This document shows, one piece after another, positions 19,512 to 63,508 of a DNA stretch of 64,000 nt; position 1 is the stretch's first letter; each line of letters starts with the position of its first letter. Where the stretch lies: the IMG/VR virus record IMGVR_UViG_3300005573_000052; one strand, given 5' to 3'. A model generated the notes under the pieces. The model had not been told where the DNA came from, made no database searches, and was given only the letters and a program-made list of their open reading frames with translations. The position numbers and the translations under genes are program-made. This DNA comes from a virus.

Positions 19512-20296
19512 GACTTCAACGGGATGTCGTTGACCCGTAGAGCACTGAGATATATCGCATTGGGATTGATGGGTTGGATGGCAGGGAGATATTGGTCGCC
19601 ATAATAAGCAGACGAGTATAACCCAAGCGCCCGCTGCTTGTAAGCCCCGGCAACATGTCCCATGCCCGTGTCCGTGTGAATGAGAGCCCGGCAAGCCAGC
19701 ATGTTACGGACTGAGTCGAAATAGTTGGTCGGTAGACAAATTGTTCCACGTAGAACAGGCTCATCTGCCCCGCCCAACTGAAGGACACGGAATCCCTGCG
19801 ATAAGATGTAATCCGCGATGGACTGTGCTGTCTCAATGTCGAGCCGCTTGTCGTTGCCGGGGTTGTAAAAACCCGCGAAAGCCGCCAACGCCACCGCGTC
19901 CTTGAAATCGTCCCGGACACTAAACCACTTAGTCAACACGGTTGAGATATCGGCGGGGATGGGCAGCCCAACCATATATGCGGCTTCGGCATTTTGATGC
20001 CGATATCTCCACCAATCCTGTTCGCGATGAGGGGGGAAGCCGTTGAAAACTATGTCGTAACGGGAACGATGAAGATAATCACGGTCCATTTCGTTGGGCC
20101 AGCCTTGGTAAGAATTGTAAACGTGGATGTCGTCGTAGTAAGGATGCCGAGCGAAAAGAGGAGCCATGTCGGCAAACTCTGGACCGAGACCGAGAGTGAG
20201 GGACGTATTGGGGTGCTGTTCTTTGAAGGCTCGGGCGGCGACGGTGGACATGACAAGGTCACCCCGAAGACCGAGATTAAACCCTATGGCTCTCAT
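19475..20296 (-). CDS. GT9 (heptosyltransferase-like) glycosyltransferase
   Basis: LRGDLVMSTVAARAFKEQHP, HTDTGMGHVAGA. Confidence 0.75.
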   Translation of the reverse strand: MRAIGFNLGLRGDLVMSTVAARAFKEQHPNTSLTLGLGPEFADMAPLFARHPYYDDIHVYNSYQGWPNEMDRDYLHRSRYDIVFNGFPPHREQDWWRYRHQNAEAAYMVGLPIPADISTVLTKWFSVRDDFKDAVALAAFAGFYNPGNDKRLDIETAQSIADYILSQGFRVLQLGGADEPVLRGTICLPTNYFDSVRNMLACRALIHTDTGMGHVAGAYKQRALGLYSSAYYGDQYLPAIQPINPNAIYLSALRVNDIPLKSCIYPAIDQLLS

Positions 20297-21248
20297 GAGT
20301 TATGTGATTTAGTTTAGCCCGGTCTCCCCAGACAATTTTTGCCTGTTCATTATAGGCAATTGCGGCTTCTTTTTCTGTGTCAAACGATCCAAGATTGTGG
20401 TTTTTCCCACCGTGTCTTATTTGGGCAAACCATTTTCCGGTTCGCTTGTAAAATGAAACACCCCGATATTTAGAAAGTCCTCTCCCAAAATTTTCACTTT
20501 TGATTTCTTCTTGCAACCGATCACACTCAACTAAAATAAAGTTACGAGAAGACTCCAAATTAGGATTCTTCAACAGATAACATTCTCTAACTTCGGCGGC
20601 TTTCCTTTCAGAGGCGAAACGACCTAAAACTTTTCGTTTGCCATTTTCCATAACATAAGTTTTCCATTTTCCTGATACCTCTTGAATCACCCCGATAAAC
20701 AACGACGAAGTCTGTTTTTTTAATTTTGGTCGGTCTATTTTTTCCGTGACCATTTTTATTTCTTCTTCCGTTGCGTCTGGAACATTTTTCGCAGCAAATT
20801 CACCAACCAATCGTGTCGCCATTATATCCCTAGCGATGGAAGCTTCTCGCAAGGAAGTAAAATAACGAGAAACGTGTGTTTCGCCGTCAACTTTTATTTC
20901 AGCGTTCCATTTACCCGTTCTGCTATCACAATAAACGCCCCTATGTCCGACTTTGTTTGTTACATAAACTTTTGAATTATGATGATTTTGAGACTGTGTT
21001 GCCAGTCTTAAATTACTTTTTTGATTATCCAACCCATTTCCGTTAATGTGATCGACTACTTTGTCTCTAATGTCATACCCGTTTCTTTCCATGACAAAAC
21101 GATGTAAAAAACCTAACTCCGAATGTTTTGCGTAACGAGTTTGTTTTCGTGGAGACCCAGCCAAACTCCACCGAAAGGGTAGCGCAGCAAGATAATCTTC
21201 GTCGTCAAGCAGAGCCACTTTCCCTTGAGATAATTGAAGTTCTTTCAT
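20277..21248 (-). CDS. HNH-AP2 homing endonuclease
   Basis: VDHINGNGLDNQKSNLR plus AP2 repeats (SKYRGVSF...KWFAQI); AT-rich. Confidence 0.85.
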   Translation of the reverse strand: MKELQLSQGKVALLDDEDYLAALPFRWSLAGSPRKQTRYAKHSELGFLHRFVMERNGYDIRDKVVDHINGNGLDNQKSNLRLATQSQNHHNSKVYVTNKVGHRGVYCDSRTGKWNAEIKVDGETHVSRYFTSLREASIARDIMATRLVGEFAAKNVPDATEEEIKMVTEKIDRPKLKKQTSSLFIGVIQEVSGKWKTYVMENGKRKVLGRFASERKAAEVRECYLLKNPNLESSRNFILVECDRLQEEIKSENFGRGLSKYRGVSFYKRTGKWFAQIRHGGKNHNLGSFDTEKEAAIAYNEQAKIVWGDRAKLNHITHESHRV

Positions 21249-21359
21249 AGAACCTATTATACACCCACTGTCTTGCCTTTTGTGACTCGTGAGGATCAAA
21301 TCAATCTATTATTACGATCCCCACGATTCGTTCTCCCTCTCGGCTCAATTCATCTCCCC

Positions 21360-34708: not shown

Positions 34709-34783
34709 TCTTGAGGGAAACGCGGGTTCAACCCCCGCCGGGGCCACGGGGCCTCGTCGTCTAGACAGGTTAAGAAACCCTCT
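34709..34783 (+). ncRNA. circularly permuted, anticodon-less tRNA-like RNA
   Basis: 3' half (GAGGG-AAAC-T arm-CGGGGCCA) precedes 5' half (GGCCTCG-D arm-CCCTC). Confidence 0.75.
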
Positions 34784-34792
34784 AACTTTTTT

Positions 34793-37269: not shown

Positions 37270-37350
37270 ATTCACCTATAGGGTTGACGGGCGGTAGCGC
37301 AGTTTGGCGACACCGGGTCGCTCGCAAACTGCTCCGATACCCTCCTTTTC

Positions 37351-37425
37351 GCGCATGTAGCTCAAAGGAAGAGCAGAGGACTCATAATCCTTTGGTTGAG
37401 ATGTCGGAATTCTCCGTGCGCACCA
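37351..37425 (+). tRNA. tRNA-Ile2/Met(CAU)
   Basis: GAGGA-CTCATAA-TCCTT-TGGT resembles Ile2-type anticodon arms; CCA. Confidence 0.8.
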
Positions 37426-37429
37426 TTTT

Positions 37430-37507
37430 GGTTCCTACTCCTAGATCAGCGAGGACCTCGACTCGTAATCGAGAACTGAGGCGGCTGCGATGCCGCAGGA
37501 ACCTCCA
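37430..37507 (+). tRNA. tRNA-Thr(CGU)
   Basis: CTCGA-CTCGTAA-TCGAG; U73-CCA. Confidence 0.8.
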
Positions 37508-37526
37508 TCTTTTTTTACTTTTTCAC

Positions 37527-37556
37527 TTGACACCGGCCACCCAATCGGGCTATGGT
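37527..37556 (+). promoter_or_regulatory. sigma70-type promoter of the Y RNA-Ro60 unit
   Basis: TTGACA-N18-TATGGT after a T-rich tract. Confidence 0.7.
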
Positions 37557-37584
37557 ATCCGTGTTCATTCTCACTTTCCCTTTT

Positions 37585-37661
37585 GCCGTGGTGCCAGACG
37601 ACCAGTTCCTCGCTGTAATCGACCGGACGAAAGTCCACTCTGGTCGTCGCCTGTTCCCGGC
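37585..37661 (+). ncRNA. Y-RNA-like RNA A
   Basis: GCCG/CGGC and CGACCAG/CTGGTCG stems; TGGTG...TCGCCTGTTCC motif shared with B and C. Confidence 0.7.
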
Positions 37662-37670
37662 AGTTATTTT

Positions 37671-37758
37671 TCTGCGATGGCGTCAGATGACGGTTACTTC
37701 TTCAATCCATAACTGAATCGCCCGCAAGGGCTAACCGTTCTCGCTTGTTCCTCGCAGA
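37671..37758 (+). ncRNA. Y-RNA-like RNA B
   Basis: TCTGCGA/TCGCAGA and ACGGTTA/TAACCGT stems; TGGCG...TCGCTTGTTCC. Confidence 0.7.
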
Positions 37759-37775
37759 TTCTCTTTCTCACTTTT

Positions 37776-37919
37776 GGAGTGGCGTAGAGCTAACCAGTTC
37801 CTCGAATACGGATCGAGAGGTCGGGGTTCAAATCCCCGGTGTCGCTTCGGCGACACTAGTGTAACGGTAGCACGCTTAGTGGTCGCAAGGCCACGCTCTG
37901 GTGCTCGCTTGTTCCCTCC
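37776..37919 (+). ncRNA. YrlA-like Y RNA C with permuted tRNA domain
   Basis: T arm, 7-bp acceptor-like stem capped by cUUCGg, D arm; shared motif; directly upstream of the TROVE gene. Confidence 0.85.
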
Positions 37920-37973
37920 AAATTCATTTCCTCGTTGCGCAGCAATTACGCCGCCGACGATGGCACTAGACCC

Positions 37974-39293
37974 ATGAAGACCAATACAAAATCCCCCCGC
38001 GCCAAAGTGTTTACCCACGAAGGTGCTCCCGCTGCCCACGCCACCGCCAAGCAGCAACTCCGCCGCTCCGTCATGTCCTGCATGCTCTGGGAGTCGGAAT
38101 TCCATGAAAGCGGCGAAGATATCGCCCAGCGAATCGCCTCGCTCGTTGCCAAGTGCAAACCTGAGGACGTGGCACTGATCGCTCGCGAAGCCCGCGAACA
38201 GATGAAACTGCGACATGTCCCGCTGCTCCTCGTGCGTGAAATGGCCCGCCTGCCTTCTCACCGCCCTTACGTGGCCGACACGCTTAACGCCGTCATCCAG
38301 CGCGCCGACGAACTCTCCGAGTTTCTGGCTATCTACTGGAAGTCGGGCAAAGACCAGCCTCTCGCCGCTCAGGTCAAAAAGGGACTGGCTCGGGCCTTCA
38401 CCCGATTCGATGAGTATGCCCTGAGCAAATATGACCGCGCCGGTGATGTCAAACTGCGGGATGCTCTCTTCCTCTGTCATGCCAAGCCGCAGGACAAGAA
38501 GCAAGAACGCCTGTGGAAACGACTCGTCAATGGCGAATTGAAGCCTGCCGGAACTTGGGAAGAGCAGCTTTCCGCCGGTAAGGACAAAAAGGCAGTGTTC
38601 ACCAAGTTGATCAAAGACGGTGAACTGGGCGCTCTCGCCCTGCTCCGCAACCTGCGCGGCATGACCGAGGCGGGAGTTAGCCACGAAATCATCACCCAAG
38701 CATTGGCTGGCATGAAAACCGAGCGGGTTCTCCCGTTTCGCTTCATCTCTGCCGCACGCTACGCCCCCCAGTTCGAGGCCGAATTGGAACAGGCGATGTT
38801 CAAGTGTCTTGAGGGAGTGGACAAGCTGAAGGGCTACACCATTCTGCTTGTGGACGTGTCGGGCTCCATGGATTCACCGATCAGCGCCAAGTCTGACCTG
38901 ACGCGTATCGACGCTGCTTGCGGACTCGCCATCCTATTGCGCGAAATCTGCGAACGGGTGGATATCTGCACGTTCTCCAGCGGGATAGTCGGAGTCCCTC
39001 CTCGCCGAGGATTCGCGCTGCGGGATGCCATCAAGAACTCGCAGCCCCATGCAAGCACCGATCTAGGTAGAGCACTCGATACCCTCAAGTATGGAACGGG
39101 TAAAGATCGCATCGTCGTCATCACGGACGAACAGTCCCATACGGCGGTTAATTCCCCCAAGACCACGGGTTACATGCTCAACGTCGCTTCAGCGGCAAAC
39201 GGAGTGGGTTACGGGGCCTGGAACCATATCGACGGTTGGAGTGAGAGTTGTGTGAAATTCGTGGCCGAGCTGGAGAAGCAAAGCGCCGATTGA
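37974..39293 (+). CDS. rsr: Ro60/Rsr TROVE-domain RNA-binding protein with vWA domain
   Basis: FTHEGAPA, KLRHVPL, IQRADE, FDEYALSKY, TWE, LALLRNLR, LPFRF, LVDVSGSM (MIDAS), VITDEQ. Confidence 0.95.
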   Translation: MKTNTKSPRAKVFTHEGAPAAHATAKQQLRRSVMSCMLWESEFHESGEDIAQRIASLVAKCKPEDVALIAREAREQMKLRHVPLLLVREMARLPSHRPYVADTLNAVIQRADELSEFLAIYWKSGKDQPLAAQVKKGLARAFTRFDEYALSKYDRAGDVKLRDALFLCHAKPQDKKQERLWKRLVNGELKPAGTWEEQLSAGKDKKAVFTKLIKDGELGALALLRNLRGMTEAGVSHEIITQALAGMKTERVLPFRFISAARYAPQFEAELEQAMFKCLEGVDKLKGYTILLVDVSGSMDSPISAKSDLTRIDAACGLAILLREICERVDICTFSSGIVGVPPRRGFALRDAIKNSQPHASTDLGRALDTLKYGTGKDRIVVITDEQSHTAVNSPKTTGYMLNVASAANGVGYGAWNHIDGWSESCVKFVAELEKQSAD

Positions 39294-39316
39294 CCGGGCT
39301 GAAAGGTCAAGTTTAC

Positions 39317-39349
39317 AGAGGGGGCGAACAAGCCTCCTCTTTCTTTTTT
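39317..39349 (+). terminator. intrinsic terminator
   Basis: AGAGGGGG/CCTCCTCT stem plus T tract after rsr. Confidence 0.65.
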
Positions 39350-39351
39350 AC

Positions 39352-39427
39352 GGCTCGTTGCCTCAGTGTTCACAGGAGTGCCTTTGTAGCGCACCATTCG
39401 GCGGTTAAAATCCGCCACGAGCCTCCA
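39352..39427 (+). tRNA. tRNA-Thr(UGU)
   Basis: loop TTTGTAG; GGCTCGT/ACGAGCC; U73-CCA. Confidence 0.75.
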
Positions 39428-39434
39428 TTTTCAC

Positions 39435-39596
39435 GCCCTAGTAGCTCAGGCCCTACCAAATATCGGGTATCAGAAGAGCGCGCTCATTAGTTGGTCACCC
39501 AAGCGAACGGCACTTAGTGAACTCATCAATTGAGGGTTTGCGATGCTGCCGTTCGACAAGCGAGGTCGTCGGTGCCAAATCCGACCTAGGGCTCCA
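39435..39596 (+). tRNA. tRNA with ~65-nt insertion in the anticodon loop and a hairpin in the D loop
   Basis: perfect GCCCTAG/CTAGGGC, GCTC/GAGC D stem, CGCTC/AAGCG, AGGTC, T arm, CCA. Confidence 0.65.
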
Positions 39597-39602
39597 TTTC
39601 AT

Positions 39603-41741: not shown

Positions 41742-42365
41742 ATGAGCACCATCCTCGACAAGCAGATTTGCCTCAAGCTAAACAAGAACTGGCAAGGCGT
41801 AGGCTTTGTCACGATAAAACAAGCTGTCACCTTCCTCTGCTCGGAGCAGGACGGCGAGCATCCCGGTTTCGCGCTCGATATCGAGATGGTCACAAATGAG
41901 AACGGCGAATCGGTCCTGTCCTACGCCAACCCGACCAAGTGGGAGGACTGGCTGAAGCTTCCCGTGCGCGAGTCCGACCTTGCTATCACGACTGGTCGCG
42001 GGCAAATTCGCGCTCCGCTGGTAGTTGTCTGTGCCAACTATGCCAAGGTTCCGACCCGCACCACGCGCTGGTCCACGGGCAATGTCCATCGCCGCGACAA
42101 TTACACCTGCGCCTACACGGGCGAGAAGCTCAGTCACGCAACCGCCACGGTTGACCATATCCAGCCCCGTTCACGCGGCGGCAAGGACGCGTGGGAAAAT
42201 ACCGTGTCGTGTCACAAGCGCGTCAACCTGCTCAAGGCCGACCGCACGCCCGAGGAAGCCGGACTGAAACTGCTCGTCAAGCCCAAGGCTCCGCCCATCA
42301 TGCCCGTGGTCATCACGGCGGATGAGGCGCGGCACGAGGCGCAGCGACACTTCCTGATTAACTAG
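41742..42365 (+). CDS. HNH endonuclease (McrA-like)
   Basis: RDNYTCAYTG...TVDHIQPRSRGGKDAWENTVSCHKRVN. Confidence 0.88.
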   Translation: MSTILDKQICLKLNKNWQGVGFVTIKQAVTFLCSEQDGEHPGFALDIEMVTNENGESVLSYANPTKWEDWLKLPVRESDLAITTGRGQIRAPLVVVCANYAKVPTRTTRWSTGNVHRRDNYTCAYTGEKLSHATATVDHIQPRSRGGKDAWENTVSCHKRVNLLKADRTPEEAGLKLLVKPKAPPIMPVVITADEARHEAQRHFLIN

Positions 42366-42376
42366 CCCAGCCCATC

Positions 42377-42412
42377 AATCCCTCTGACCTTAACCGGCGG
42401 AGGGATTTTTTT
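42377..42412 (+). terminator. intrinsic terminator
   Basis: AATCCCTC/GAGGGATT stem plus T tract. Confidence 0.65.
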
Positions 42413-43004
42413 GTTGACATCGTATGACCAATTTGTCTATCATGAAGTAAACGTGACCCAACTGACCTTCAACCAAGTTCTTCATCGAGAGTATTTGGGC
42501 TCGCCCGTCTGGAAAGCAAAACGAGAAGAGGCCATAAATCATTATGGGCCAGTCTGTTCTCGATGCAAAGAATACGGAACAGACGTTCATCATAAAACTT
42601 ACATTCGGTGGGGTGGCAATGAATTAATGGAAGACCTTGAAATCATGTGTCGTGAGTGCCACGACGCGCATCATCGGGTAGAAAAGGCAACCCGACAAAA
42701 GAAAATCAAGAAAAAAGGTCTACGCAGAGAAGCTATCTACCGATACCTGTCTCCAAGCCAAAAGAAAATCCTAATTGACAGGTTCTCTCTGTCTGGAGAT
42801 AAGGACCTCTACGGAAGAATTGTTTTAAGTAACTCCTTGCCAATAATTAACGAAGCGTTGAAAATTCTTGGTTGTGATTACGCCTATGGACCAAAACAAA
42901 TTTTCAGACCTCCTGTAAGCAAAAAAGAAAGAGAAAAAAATCTTCAACGGGTAAAAAGACAAGAGGAGGCTTACAAACTCGCAATCTCAGGTAAATTACC
43001 GTAA
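42411..43004 (+). CDS. HNH endonuclease (true start probably GTG ~42453)
   Basis: CSRC...VHHKTY...NE...LEIMCRECH; TTGACA-N18-TATCAT at 42414-42443. Confidence 0.75.
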   Translation: MLTSYDQFVYHEVNVTQLTFNQVLHREYLGSPVWKAKREEAINHYGPVCSRCKEYGTDVHHKTYIRWGGNELMEDLEIMCRECHDAHHRVEKATRQKKIKKKGLRREAIYRYLSPSQKKILIDRFSLSGDKDLYGRIVLSNSLPIINEALKILGCDYAYGPKQIFRPPVSKKEREKNLQRVKRQEEAYKLAISGKLP

Positions 43005-47317: not shown

Positions 47318-48388
47318 GTGAAACCCCACCTCTCCATGAAAAGGAAAATACAAAAAGAATGGCATGAAGAAATCTGCCAAAAACGGCGAAGCGGCCAGAC
47401 CGTAAAGTCTTTGGCAAAAGAATATAATGTTAGCGAAACAGCCATCGGAAGAACGCTTAGGGCGAATGGGGTAAAAATAGCACCGCGATATTTTCGCAAA
47501 CATTGGTTTGATTTCCGTTTTTTTGATGAGATCGACTCCGAAGAAAAATCTTACATTTTGGGCTTTTTATATGCAGACGGCTCCAATTGTCCTAAAAATG
47601 GTAAGGTTACTTTAGAACTTCAGGATGCTGATAAGGAAATTTTAGAAAAAATTGCAACGGCAATAGGTTTCAGCGGAAAGTTATTTCCTTTAACCCCAAG
47701 ATGCAAAGGGAAGGTTTATCCTTCATGCCGACTTTCACTAAATAGTCGAATATTTTCAGATCGTTGTTCTGAACTCGGAGTTGTTTATGACAAATCCTTT
47801 AAGATTCAGATGCCTTCAGAAACAATTGTTCCTCCCTCTCTTCTTCCCCATTTTATCCGGGGCTATTTTGACGGAGATGGGAGCTTTTCTTTTCGACCAG
47901 AAAAGAGTCGCTTTGCAACGATAAATTTTATTGGGAACCCCTTGTTTATCGACCAATTACAACAATATTTTGTATCTGCTCTCAGCATCAAAGGGTCCAC
48001 CCATCCTCATAAAAACCAAAAATCGAAATATCTAGGTATCTCTGGTAACCTTCAGATAGAAAGGGTTTTGGAACATTTGTATCAAAATGCCACCATTTAT
48101 CTTAAACGGAAACACGATAAGTATATTATCTTTAAGGGGTTGCGTAGAACTTTCTCTCGTAAGGCCGGATGCTCATCTCGGTTTTTTGGTGTTTCTAAAA
48201 CTGAAGACAAAACATGGAAAGCTGGGGTAAATTTTGGAGGCAAACAGCACTATCTGGGAGCCTTTAAGACAGAGGAGGAGGCGGCACGGGTTTACGATAA
48301 ATGGTGTAGAGAACGAGGTCACAATCTTCAGTTGTTGAATTTTCCTAAGTCCGAGGCGGTAGACATACTGCTTGCTGGGGTAGGGTAA
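47318..48388 (+). CDS. LAGLIDADG homing endonuclease with AP2-like C-terminus
   Basis: YILGFLYADGS and FIRGYFDGDGS; AT-rich. Confidence 0.88.
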   Translation: MKPHLSMKRKIQKEWHEEICQKRRSGQTVKSLAKEYNVSETAIGRTLRANGVKIAPRYFRKHWFDFRFFDEIDSEEKSYILGFLYADGSNCPKNGKVTLELQDADKEILEKIATAIGFSGKLFPLTPRCKGKVYPSCRLSLNSRIFSDRCSELGVVYDKSFKIQMPSETIVPPSLLPHFIRGYFDGDGSFSFRPEKSRFATINFIGNPLFIDQLQQYFVSALSIKGSTHPHKNQKSKYLGISGNLQIERVLEHLYQNATIYLKRKHDKYIIFKGLRRTFSRKAGCSSRFFGVSKTEDKTWKAGVNFGGKQHYLGAFKTEEEAARVYDKWCRERGHNLQLLNFPKSEAVDILLAGVG

Positions 48389-62090: not shown

Positions 62091-62269
62091 TGACTGTTTC
62101 ACTCCGCTACCCCAAGTGTATCTCCTGCTCTCAACCCCTTTTTCCAGTCCAGCTAGCCCAAGGTCCAAGGTAACGTAACCCACCCCGCCCATGCCCAACG
62201 CACGTTAGCTCGGGTAAAAATAACAAGAGAATCTGTCGAATCTTGTTCTGGCGGGTGTATAGTAGGCCG

Positions 62270-63508
62270 ATGCACAAAGGTTACAGTTTCCGCCTTTACC
62301 CGACAGAGACCCAAAAGGCTCTGCTTGAAAAGCATTTTGGTTGCGCTAGATGGGTCTATAATTGGGCTCTGGAACAGAAAATCGCCTATTACCAGAAAGA
62401 AAAAAAGGGAGTGTCAATGTATGAGGTGGCAAGGGAATTGACCAAGCTAAAGCGTGAAGAGGGGAAAGAATGGCTTCAAGAAGTGTCGAGTCAGTCTCTC
62501 GGCTATTCCATGATGCATTTGGATAGAGCTTTTACTAATTTTTTCAAGCACAAAAAGGGATTTCCTAAGTTCAAAAGCAAGAAAAAGAGCCGAGCGAGTT
62601 TCACTCACAATTTGAGTAACGATCTCAACGAAGAGAAGGGGCTTGTTTACGCAACCAATTTTAGAGAGGGGATAAGATGTGTTTTCACTCGTCCTGTCGA
62701 AGGGAAGATTAAGCGGATGACGTTTTCCCGGACCAAGACGGGAAAATACTATGTCGGGATATTAGTCGAGACCCCGGAGGAGTTCCCCACACCCCCGCCT
62801 CCAAGGGAAGAACTCTCCGTAGGAATAGACTTAGGGCTGAAGACGTTTGCAACATTAGACGACGGAACCAAGATTGATACCCCGAAATTCCTTCAAGGTT
62901 CCCTCCAAAGGCTCAGGCGAGCGCAAAAGCATTTAAGTCGCTGCCAATATGGGTCCAAAAATTGGGAAAAGGCGCGTGACAAGGTGGCCAGACTGCATGA
63001 GCACGTAGCTAACTCCCGAAAAGATTTTCTGCACAAGGTCAGTCATAAACTAGTATGCGATAATCAAGCTACTACGTTATGCATTGAAAACTTGGACATA
63101 ACAGAAATGATAGAAAAGGCCCCTTCGCGGCGTAAAAGGTCGATTTACGACGCGGGGTGGAGGATGTTTAGGGGTATGCTAGAATACAAGTGCGAGTGGC
63201 ACGGCAAAAATTTAATGATGATAGGCCAGTTCGAGCCTTCAAGCAAGATATGCTCGTGCTGTGGGGAGATGAACAAAGACCTCGGCAAAAAACGAGAATG
63301 GACGTGTAAAAAATGTGAGACACACCACGACCGAGACATCAATGCCGCCAAAAACATAAAAAAAATAGCCTTTTGCAAGCAGAACACTGTGTCTGCCAAG
63401 ATTTTACCGCCGGACAGGCGGGATGTTAAGCCTGTGGAGAGTTCCGTTTTGGAATTCAACGAAGCAGGAACGGAAAAGGATCGCCTAACTCCCTCACGGG
63501 GTGTATAG
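62270..63508 (+). CDS. tnpB: TnpB RNA-guided endonuclease (IS200/IS605 or IS607 type), no TnpA nearby
   Basis: YSFRLYPT, FGCARWVYN, GIDLG, CIENL, CSCC...CKKC, DRDINAAKNI. Confidence 0.93.
   Translation: MHKGYSFRLYPTETQKALLEKHFGCARWVYNWALEQKIAYYQKEKKGVSMYEVARELTKLKREEGKEWLQEVSSQSLGYSMMHLDRAFTNFFKHKKGFPKFKSKKKSRASFTHNLSNDLNEEKGLVYATNFREGIRCVFTRPVEGKIKRMTFSRTKTGKYYVGILVETPEEFPTPPPPREELSVGIDLGLKTFATLDDGTKIDTPKFLQGSLQRLRRAQKHLSRCQYGSKNWEKARDKVARLHEHVANSRKDFLHKVSHKLVCDNQATTLCIENLDITEMIEKAPSRRKRSIYDAGWRMFRGMLEYKCEWHGKNLMMIGQFEPSSKICSCCGEMNKDLGKKREWTCKKCETHHDRDINAAKNIKKIAFCKQNTVSAKILPPDRRDVKPVESSVLEFNEAGTEKDRLTPSRGV
63405..63500 (+). ncRNA. TnpB omega-RNA scaffold and possible guide
   Basis: AAGCCTGTGGAG...GAAGCAGGAA overlapping the tnpB 3' end. 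Confidence 0.6.

What the first reader, a model, noticed from the sequence alone, without database searches (positions are those of the whole stretch)
37527..39349. Ro60 operon with three tandem paralogous Y-like RNAs
Seen: promoter, RNA A (77 nt), RNA B (88 nt), RNA C (144 nt), TROVE gene, terminator. All three RNAs share one architecture with different, covarying stems: terminal stem; TGGYG-Y-AGA; second stem (CGACCAG/CTGGTCG, ACGGTTA/TAACCGT, ACCAG/CTGGT); pyrimidine tract; hairpin; GNRA hairpin; invariant TCGCYTGTTCC. Known: bacterial Rsr binds Y RNAs encoded next to it, and YrlA mimics tRNA and can tether PNPase. Inference: a phage RNA quality-control or anti-defence RNP with interchangeable RNA subunits. 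A and B would be missed by tRNA-like models, and the shared motif may define a new Ro-binding site.
Basis: partly seen in the sequence, partly recalled or inferred. Interest (0 to 1): 0.88.

Follow-up and report, generated by a model that had tools for sequence, protein, structure and literature searches.

The report
Phage Ro60 gene with three Y RNAs
An uncultured hot-spring phage carries a Ro60 (TROVE) gene preceded by three small Y RNA genes, two short and one with a tRNA-shaped head; this is real but ordinary, because hundreds of related phage Ro60 genes have the same arrays of one to eight Y RNAs.

Summary
Between a promoter-like site and a TROVE/Ro60 gene lie three tandem RNAs: A 37583-37663, B 37671-37758 and C 37773-37922. 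All three share one "handle": a terminal stem, a bulged U, a GG/CC pair step, a conserved asymmetric loop and a second stem.

A covariance model built without the window's sequences finds exactly these three in the window (47, 36 and 26 bits; next best 14). Two models of this handle gave 149 and 206 matches beside related TROVE genes in two sets of loci. Every match lies on the TROVE strand. Pairing is 91-94% and covariation is strong.

These are bacterial-type Y RNAs. The 5' motif is a variant of the published GNCGAA(N)G Ro-binding motif. C has the V / T arm / closed acceptor hairpin / D arm order of YrlA. A and B are short, YrlB-like.

The protein models as a Ro60 ring, closest to Thermus phage phiLo Ro60, which was shown to bind two upstream Y-like RNAs.

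Three units is typical: 31 of 43 loci have three or more. This is a new member of a known kind.

Modest additions: the family is absent from Rfam, its 3' strand is also conserved in this clade, and all three window RNAs share a rare GNRA hairpin. Binding and function remain inferred.

The parts
37527..37556 (+). Sigma-70-like promoter candidate (TTGACA, 18-nt spacer, TATGGT) about 27 nt upstream of RNA A
   Evidence: 10 of 12 matches. Only one such site in 2.5 kb, but shuffles also give about one, so position is the only support.
37583..37663 (+). Y RNA A (short, YrlB-like). Terminal stem 37583-37588 / 37658-37663; 5' motif 37589-37598; second stem 37599-37605 / 37640-37646; small hairpin 37610-37622; GNRA hairpin 37625-37636; 3' motif 37647-37657.
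   Evidence: z -3.1. Leave-out model R2: 36.4 bits, E 2.6e-7 over the whole window.
37671..37758 (+). Y RNA B (short, YrlB-like). Terminal stem 37671-37677 / 37752-37758; 5' motif 37678-37687; second stem about 37688-37696 / 37732-37740; UACUUC block about 37694-37699; GNRA hairpin 37720-37731; 3' motif 37741-37751.
   Evidence: R2: 47.1 bits, E 4e-10.
37773..37922 (+). Y RNA C (YrlA-like): the same handle as A and B around a permuted tRNA-like head
   Evidence: R2 26.0 bits and R1 28 bits. Aligns with 25 long units from other loci.
37801..37873 (+). tRNA-like module of C: V hairpin 37801-37817, T arm 37822-37838 (UUCAAAU loop), closed acceptor-like hairpin 37839-37856 (UUCG loop), D arm 37859-37873
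   Evidence: Alignment A4 shows invariant T-loop and D-loop nucleotides. The element order matches YrlA in PMC4201824. Weak Rfam match to a tRNA-like family at 37779-37845.
37879..37894 (+). Extra GNRA-capped hairpin of C, at the same place as the GNRA hairpins of A and B (26-27 nt from the 3' end)
   Evidence: only 9 of 149 family members carry such a hairpin there, among them all three window RNAs.
37974..39293 (+). Ro60/TROVE protein gene, 439 aa (HEAT-repeat ring plus vWA domain with a DxSxS metal site at residues 294-298)
   Evidence: Pfam TROVE 2.2e-18 and VWA_2. PDB phmmer 9l5y/9kop 2e-21. AlphaFold2 pLDDT 85. Foldseek 9kop TM 0.70 and 1yvp TM 0.70. D294, S296 and S298 are invariant in 21 homologues.
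39317..39349 (+). Intrinsic-terminator-like hairpin (9 bp) plus T run, 24 nt after the stop codon
   Evidence: The count of such sites in the region is not above shuffles; position is the support.

Best explanation
The locus is a phage Ro60-Y RNA module. One transcript probably starts near 37557. It would carry three Y RNAs and then the Ro60 mRNA, and be cut in the U-rich 7- and 14-nt spacers.

Each RNA uses the same handle to sit on the outer face of the Ro60 ring. The handle is a terminal stem, a bulged U, a GG/CC step, an asymmetric internal loop (5' YGNA, 3' GNUUGUU) and a second stem, followed by UACUUC.

The variable distal part would be the effector end. In C it is a permuted tRNA body of the YrlA type. 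In A and B it is two small hairpins, YrlB-like. By analogy with Deinococcus, Salmonella and Thermus phage phiLo, these RNAs would gate the Ro60 cavity and tether Ro60 to host factors such as PNPase. That would give the phage control over the turnover of structured or damaged RNAs. The module sits in the phage's tRNA gene array, so tRNAs are the likeliest clients.

Shown here:
- The three RNAs belong to a large, covarying RNA family that is strictly linked in position and strand to this TROVE clade.
- The protein has the Ro60 fold.

Inferred:
- Binding, co-transcription and processing, partner proteins, and the biological role.
For: - Model R1 gave 149 hits (E <= 1e-3) in 342 kb from 44 TROVE loci. 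All are on the TROVE strand and next to the gene.
- Model R2, which contains no window sequence, gave 206 hits in 80 separate metagenome loci, again all on the TROVE strand.
- In whole phage genomes (CcrColossus 280 kb, a Brevundimonas phage 357 kb, Tabio 43 kb) every hit lies just upstream of TROVE.
- Covariation: 91% and 94% of cells are paired against 38-54% when partners are slid. The covariation score is 0.84 and 0.88 against about 0.1-0.15. All 16 and 17 pairs show double changes.
- Conserved unpaired blocks are listed.
- Lengths are bimodal, about 65 nt and about 130 nt. The long form has a T arm, closed acceptor hairpin and D arm, as in YrlA.
- A Streptomyces phage hit shows the canonical GCGAAG followed by UUACUUC.
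- The protein has the Ro60 fold.
- Published precedent: phiLo Ro60 binds two upstream Yrl RNAs and forms a ternary complex with host PNPase (PMC12135203). M. smegmatis YrlA and YrlB are processed from one precursor upstream of rsr.
Against: - There is no expression or binding data for this phage. No RNA run holds the locus.
- The promoter and terminator are consensus matches no more frequent than in shuffled sequence.
- The window's RNAs deviate from the family consensus. A and B have one extra nucleotide in the 5' motif, and A and C read UUCCUC in place of UACUUC.
- C scores only 26-28 bits, because its 112-nt insert is penalised.
- No RtcB, RNA ligase or PNPase gene was found among 30 of the window's largest ORFs. 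The partner is therefore unknown, and the rest of the genome is not held.
Confidence: 0.85

Rival explanations
1. The three structures are cis-acting leader elements of the Ro60 mRNA, not stable trans-acting RNAs. Ro60 would bind its own 5' UTR to autoregulate translation or mRNA stability.
For: In the window, and in most loci, the units lie directly upstream of TROVE on the same strand with very short spacers. Only one promoter-like site precedes them.
Against: In several loci the units lie downstream of the gene: L018 3649-3942, L028 4336-4604, L005 3880-4090, L006 4000-4073, L008 3948-4029. Arrays of up to eight units with elaborate tRNA-like heads are far more than a binding site needs. 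Characterised homologues are stable RNAs (PMC4201824, PMC12135203). Autoregulation could still coexist with a trans role.
Confidence: 0.07
2. The units are decayed tRNA genes or tRNA-array debris (pseudo-tRNAs, processing punctuation) that merely sit next to TROVE, with no Ro60 binding.
For: The locus is embedded in a tRNA array. Long units contain T and D arms, and some are annotated or scored as tRNA in other phages.
Against: The conserved part is the non-tRNA handle, with compensatory changes in every pair. Short units have no tRNA features at all. Hits occur only beside TROVE and only on its strand, including in whole phage genomes.
Confidence: 0.03
3. The RNAs bind Ro60, but the main role is decoy or anti-defence. 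The tRNA-shaped head and the other heads would sequester host tRNA-targeting nucleases or hijack PNPase away from CRISPR RNA maturation, rather than serve RNA quality control.
For: The locus lies in a phage tRNA array, as do many relatives. Heads differ within arrays, with different D-arm types in one locus. This kind of role was proposed for phiLo (PMC12135203).
Against: There is no direct evidence. No defence or counter-defence gene is linked in the window. The idea is not exclusive of the main explanation.
Confidence: 0.15

Closest known systems
YrlA and YrlB, bacterial and actinophage Y RNAs (Chen et al. 2014, PMC4201824; YrlA crystal structure, bioRxiv 10.1101/312249)
   Same: Encoded next to Ro60 on the same strand. 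The 5' and 3' ends pair into a long stem. A 5'-strand motif is related to GNCGAA(N)G, followed by a YUAY-type element. One RNA has V, T arm, closed acceptor hairpin and D arm in that order (C). Others are short hairpins with pyrimidine-rich loops (A, B). In M. smegmatis two RNAs come from one upstream precursor.
   Different: The 5' motif is a variant (GGYGNAG; A and B have one extra base). The 3' strand is also strongly conserved in this clade, whereas only the 5' strand is reported conserved across bacteria. There are three RNAs rather than two. All three carry an extra GNRA hairpin. The protein belongs to a shorter (about 430-450 aa) TROVE clade.
Thermus phage phiLo Ro60 with Yrl1 and Yrl2 (PMC12135203; PDB 9KOP, 9L5Y)
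   Same: A phage Ro60 with tandem Y-like RNAs immediately upstream. It is the closest solved structure to this protein (phmmer 2e-21; Foldseek TM 0.70). Both come from a thermal habitat.
   Different: Only 24% identity in the structural alignment. phiLo has two RNAs, identified by a CGAA motif, and no tRNA-like head is described. In phiLo, binding and PNPase complex formation were shown; here nothing is tested.
Deinococcus radiodurans Rsr / Yrn1 / PNPase (RYPER)
   Same: Ro60 ring plus a Y RNA that tethers an exoribonuclease. Several small RNAs are encoded upstream of rsr. Yrn1 has a T-arm-like element.
   Different: Yrn1 is considered an independent lineage with a different module order. No PNPase link is shown here.
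Metazoan Y RNAs (Rfam RF00019)
   Same: Terminal stem with a bulged nucleotide and conservation on both strands of the Ro-binding helix; several paralogous Y RNAs for one Ro60.
   Different: No sequence or model match (no Rfam hit at E <= 10). Different motifs, and no Pol III or La features.

Membership tests
Ro60 / TROVE protein | TROVE domain above Pfam's curated cut-off | tested here: met
   PF05731, 67.1 bits against a cut-off of 23.
Ro60 / TROVE protein | C-terminal vWA domain with a DxSxS metal-binding site | tested here: met
   VWA_2 27.9 bits. D294, S296 and S298 are invariant in 21 homologues.
Ro60 / TROVE protein | Overall fold like solved Ro60 rings | tested here: met
   AlphaFold2 pLDDT 85, pTM 0.79. 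The top 13 Foldseek hits are all Ro60 (9kop, 9l5y, 1yvp, 2i91, 2nvo), TM 0.60-0.72.
Ro60 / TROVE protein | Binds Y RNA | not testable with these tools
   Needs EMSA or RIP.
Bacterial Y RNA, YrlA type (RNA C) | Encoded within a few kb of Ro60 on the same strand | tested here: met
   C ends 51 nt before the ATG.
Bacterial Y RNA, YrlA type (RNA C) | 5' and 3' ends pair into a long stem that holds the Ro-binding site | tested here: met
   both helices are supported by compensatory changes across more than 260 distinct family members.
Bacterial Y RNA, YrlA type (RNA C) | GNCGAA(N)G motif near the 5' end | tested here: inconclusive
   C reads GGCGUAG, 6 of 7 positions. The clade consensus is GGYGNAG. 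The canonical form is seen in a Streptomyces phage hit of the same model.
Bacterial Y RNA, YrlA type (RNA C) | V, T arm, closed acceptor stem-loop and D arm in this order, with tRNA-like conserved loop nucleotides | tested here: met
   Coordinates in parts; alignment A4; order as described.
Bacterial Y RNA, YrlA type (RNA C) | tRNA-type modifications and tRNA-enzyme substrate | not testable with these tools
   Experimental.
Short Y RNA, YrlB type (RNAs A and B) | Same Ro-binding handle, no tRNA-like domain, hairpin with pyrimidine-rich loop, co-encoded with a YrlA | tested here: met
   YrlB itself has no published sequence model, so the likeness is architectural only.
Any Rfam family (Y_RNA, tRNA and others) | Match at the gathering score | tested here: not met
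   No hit to A, B or C at gathering. At E <= 10 the only matches are a sub-threshold tRNA-like one inside C and a sub-threshold sRNA-family one (RF03070) at 37840-37872. Related loci give only tRNA hits inside long units.

The most novel reading that the evidence does not exclude
The Y RNA arrays may be an adaptor library. One Ro60-binding handle would be reused under many different heads: distinct tRNA-body mimics, short hairpins and, in this phage, a shared GNRA hairpin. A single phage Ro60 could then be directed to, or act as a decoy for, several host tRNA-binding enzymes and nucleases during infection. In this phage that would work together with its unusual tRNA set and its own RNase P RNA. 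The conserved 3' strand would then mark a two-strand Ro60 recognition mode specific to this short TROVE clade.
Probability: 0.15. Interest if true: 0.75.

Novelty: new member of a known kind. Interest (0 to 1): 0.42.

Why it matters
For this window the result is mainly correct annotation. There are three Y RNA genes and a Ro60 gene in a phage tRNA island, not a new class of element.

The by-products are useful:
- A covariance model for a Y RNA family that Rfam lacks. It found more than 350 matches beside phage and prophage TROVE genes.
- Evidence that arrays of three to eight Y RNAs mixing short and tRNA-like forms are the rule in this clade.
- A two-strand conserved handle that can guide mutagenesis.
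- Cultured phages in which the system can be tested: Caulobacter CcrColossus with eight units, Xanthomonas Tabio with five, and Bacteroides crAss001.
- Some "tRNA" annotations in published phage genomes are actually Y RNA heads.

Tried and rejected
- Rfam at gathering score and at E <= 10 gave no Y RNA family match.
- No whole genome is held for the window. There is no megablast relative among phage records.
- Sequencing runs: two hot-spring DNA runs hold the locus, one of them probably the source. Both are identical over what they cover, so there is no strain covariation. No RNA holder is listed. The third run matched only short, unlike pieces of the TROVE gene.
- No homologue above 65% identity was found in the viral, genome or metagenome collections. 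Orthologue-by-orthologue covariation of A, B and C could therefore not be done.
- Supplementary tables of Chen 2014 and two reviews are not held. I could not check whether any phage of this clade was already listed there.
- Control genomes of the genome search gave no loci for Salmonella or Mycobacterium, so the model was not run on the type YrlA genes.
- A mutual-information scan of the internal loop found one extra covarying pair (G14-C232) and no other pairing.
- Pfam scans of 30 of the window's largest ORFs found no RtcB, RNA ligase or PNPase.
- RNA C's head and the free-standing tRNA-like head at 34709-34786 align only loosely, so they are not recent copies.

Full report
**What is there**

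Reading 37300-39600 shows the following, in order:
- a TTGACA / 18 nt / TATGGT site at 37527-37556;
- three structured segments;
- an ORF whose first ATG is at 37974 and which ends at 39293;
- a 9-bp GC-rich hairpin with a T run at 39317-39349.

The ORF is a TROVE protein with a vWA domain. Its only sequence matches among solved structures are the Ro60 of Thermus phage phiLo (2e-21). An AlphaFold2 model built on 21 homologues (pLDDT 85) superposes on phiLo, Xenopus, human and Deinococcus Ro60 with TM 0.60-0.72. The DxSxS metal site is invariant in the 21 homologues.

**The three RNAs**

That architecture is:
- a terminal stem;
- an unpaired U;
- a GG/CC step;
- an internal loop;
- a second stem;
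- a pyrimidine tract;
- distal hairpins;
- a conserved 3' strand.

The spacers are 7 and 14 nt and U-rich. C ends 51 nt before the ATG.

**Is it more than chance, and does it recur?**

A motif scan and a simple stem finder showed the same unit repeated upstream of TROVE in several phages. These include Caulobacter phages CcrColossus and CcrPW (8 units each), Brevundimonas phages (4-5) and Xanthomonas phage Tabio (3-5).

I aligned 23 short units (A1). RNAalifold gave two helices, with compensatory changes in 14 of 16 pairs. Model R1, built from this alignment, found:
- 108 hits in the first 36 sources;
- 83 hits in 20 loci from genome assemblies;
- 149 hits at E <= 1e-3 in a de-duplicated set of 44 sources.

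Every hit is on the TROVE strand and adjacent to the gene. In the 64-kb window there are only the three.

In complete phage genomes all hits lie directly upstream of TROVE: 8 in CcrColossus, 3 in a 357-kb Brevundimonas phage and 5 in Tabio. The one exception is a weak hit in a Rhizobium phage, about 8 kb upstream.

Because A and B were in the seed of R1, I built R2 from 26 units of other loci only. R2 scores B 47.1, A 36.4 and C 26.0 bits, and the next best hit scores 14.1. On 80 separate metagenome loci R2 gave 206 hits, again all on the TROVE strand.

Pair counts on the two model-fitted alignments:

| Measure | A2 | A7 |
|---|---|---|
| Cells paired | 91% | 94% |
| Cells paired with partners slid | 40-54% | 38-54% |
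| Covariation score | 0.84 | 0.88 |
| Covariation score with partners slid | 0.11-0.15 | 0.10-0.14 |
| Pairs with double changes | 16 of 16 | 17 of 17 |

These alignments are fitted to the model, which favours the structure. The size of the effect and the MAFFT-based result make the helices secure.

**Family anatomy**

Column statistics give this consensus:
- stem 1;
- U (147 of 149);
- GG;
- Y;
- G (149 of 149);
- N, A, G;
- stem 2;
- UACUUC (each position 124-148 of 149);
- a variable part;
- stem 2';
- C-G-N-U-U-G-U-U-C-C;
- stem 1'.

The GG/CC step covaries to A-U in a minority of units. One more pair, G14-C232, shows covariation. The rest of the loop (4 nt against 7 nt) does not pair.

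Lengths are bimodal. About 65 nt units have no T arm. About 130 nt units have a V hairpin, a T arm, a closed acceptor-like hairpin and a D arm (alignment A4). Most loci combine both kinds. Of 43 loci with hits, 39 have two or more units and 31 have three or more. The window's two short plus one long is ordinary.

**What it is**

The order V, T, closed acceptor stem-loop, D inside a long terminal stem is the definition of YrlA (PMC4201824). The same paper reports:
- a GNCGAA(N)G motif near the 5' end, shared by YrlA and YrlB;
- a conserved YUAY at the start of the V region;
- short companion Y RNAs with pyrimidine-rich loops;
- in M. smegmatis, both RNAs upstream of rsr on one precursor.

The clade's GGYGNAG aligns position by position with that motif, and UUAC within UACUUC fits YUAY. 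R1's hit in Streptomyces phage Kradal reads GCGAAGG, a stem, then UUACUUC, which is the canonical form. Weaker hits at the right place and strand also occur upstream of TROVE in Rhodococcus, Allomeiothermus and Gordonia phage loci.

C is therefore a YrlA-type Y RNA, and A and B are YrlB-like short Y RNAs.

Rfam 15 has no model that finds A or B; for C it gives only two partial, sub-threshold matches, neither to a Y RNA family.

A phage precedent with biochemistry exists. Thermus phage phiLo Ro60 has two Y-like RNAs upstream, binds both, and forms a complex with host PNPase (PMC12135203). Jumbo-phage TROVE genes have also been noted in the literature (PMC7824862).

**What is slightly new**

- The 3' strand of the handle is almost as conserved as the 5' strand. 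The literature states that only the 5' strand is conserved across bacterial Y RNAs (10.1101/312249).
- Arrays reach eight units in Caulobacter phages and in contigs binned with Acidobacteriota, which are the closest relatives of this protein at 57-65% identity.
- Heads differ within arrays. For example, D arms of different types occur in one locus.
- A GNRA-capped hairpin 26-27 nt from the 3' end occurs in all three window RNAs but in only six other units of 149. This suggests either duplication within this lineage or a partner specific to this phage.
- A and C also share the UUCCUC variant, and A and B share an extra base in the 5' motif.

**Context**

The module sits in a tRNA array: 13 ARAGORN genes and further Rfam hits between 32.5 and 40.2 kb. 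Relatives are often flanked by tRNA or tmRNA genes. The source is a hot-spring metagenome. Pfam scans of 30 of the largest ORFs found no RtcB, RNA ligase or PNPase. The rest of the genome is not available.

**Mechanism**

Shown: family membership of the RNAs, their strict linkage to TROVE, and the Ro60 fold of the protein.

Inferred from characterised systems:
- the handle binds the outer surface of the ring;
- the RNAs gate the cavity and tether effectors, with PNPase the best-documented partner;
- the RNAs are cut out of one precursor;
- the clients are structured RNAs, plausibly tRNAs given the neighbourhood.

A cis-regulatory leader role is unlikely as the sole function, because several loci place the units downstream of the gene. 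A "tRNA debris" reading is excluded by the covarying non-tRNA handle and by the strand and position specificity.

**Verdict**

This is a real, well-supported Ro60-Y RNA locus and a new member of a known kind. Its claim of a new Ro-binding site is only partly right, and its interest score was too high given the 2014 and 2025 literature.

Noticed in passing
L004 1628-1695 (CcrColossus 'tRNA-Gln'); L010 2266-2340 (Kikimora 'tRNA-Ser'); L002 2324-2394, L019 2825-2891, L021 2434-2494 (Rfam tRNA hits): Annotated or Rfam-scored 'tRNAs' upstream of TROVE in published phage genomes lie inside long Y RNA units (L004 1624-1788, L010 2268-2399 and others). They are probably Y RNA heads mis-called as tRNA genes.
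   Followed up: partly
window 37428-37507: A cloverleaf-like RNA directly after the tRNA at 37351-37422, with a 7-bp acceptor stem, a CGU anticodon-like loop and a terminal UCCA. Its T loop is an atypical 6-nt loop. Both ARAGORN and Rfam miss it. A T run follows, just before the promoter-like site.
   Followed up: partly
window 37351-37422: A tRNA with a CAU anticodon found by Rfam (50 bits) but not by ARAGORN. Its T arm has non-standard pairs.
   Followed up: no
window 39435-39598: A tRNA-like gene with matching acceptor strands and a terminal UCCA, but about 70-90 extra nucleotides inside it. Seen only by eye; also noted by the earlier scan.
   Followed up: no
L060 (Allomeiothermus silvanus plasmid pMESIL01) 2965-6318: Here the TROVE gene is followed directly by an RNB-domain exoribonuclease gene and preceded by a weak Y-like hit (2743-2818, 21 bits), next to a type I-C CRISPR adaptation module. 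This is a possible hard-wired Ro60-exonuclease pair.
   Followed up: no
L061 (Deinococcus gobiensis plasmid P2) 2765-2968: A TROVE gene of the phage clade (53% identity) sits on a bacterial megaplasmid with one short and one long Y RNA upstream. It is flanked by a transposase and a BrnT/CopG toxin-antitoxin pair.
   Followed up: no
L010 5841-6186; L006 1-216: A permuted tmRNA (Rfam RF04321) and an annotated tmRNA lie within a few kb of TROVE in a Brevundimonas phage and a crAss-like phage.
   Followed up: no
window 62243-63508: An IS605 OrfB/TnpB-like ORF (HTH, OrfB_IS605 and Cas12f-like TNB domains) in the phage genome. The window also holds several HNH and LAGLIDADG endonuclease ORFs (41742-43004, 47318-48388, 20277-21299).
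   Followed up: no
L003 (Ralstonia phage RsoM2USA) 2100-2510: This TROVE gene (49% identity) has no detectable Y RNA unit within 2.5 kb on either side, only a tRNA at 2213-2284. It is an exception to the rule.
   Followed up: partly
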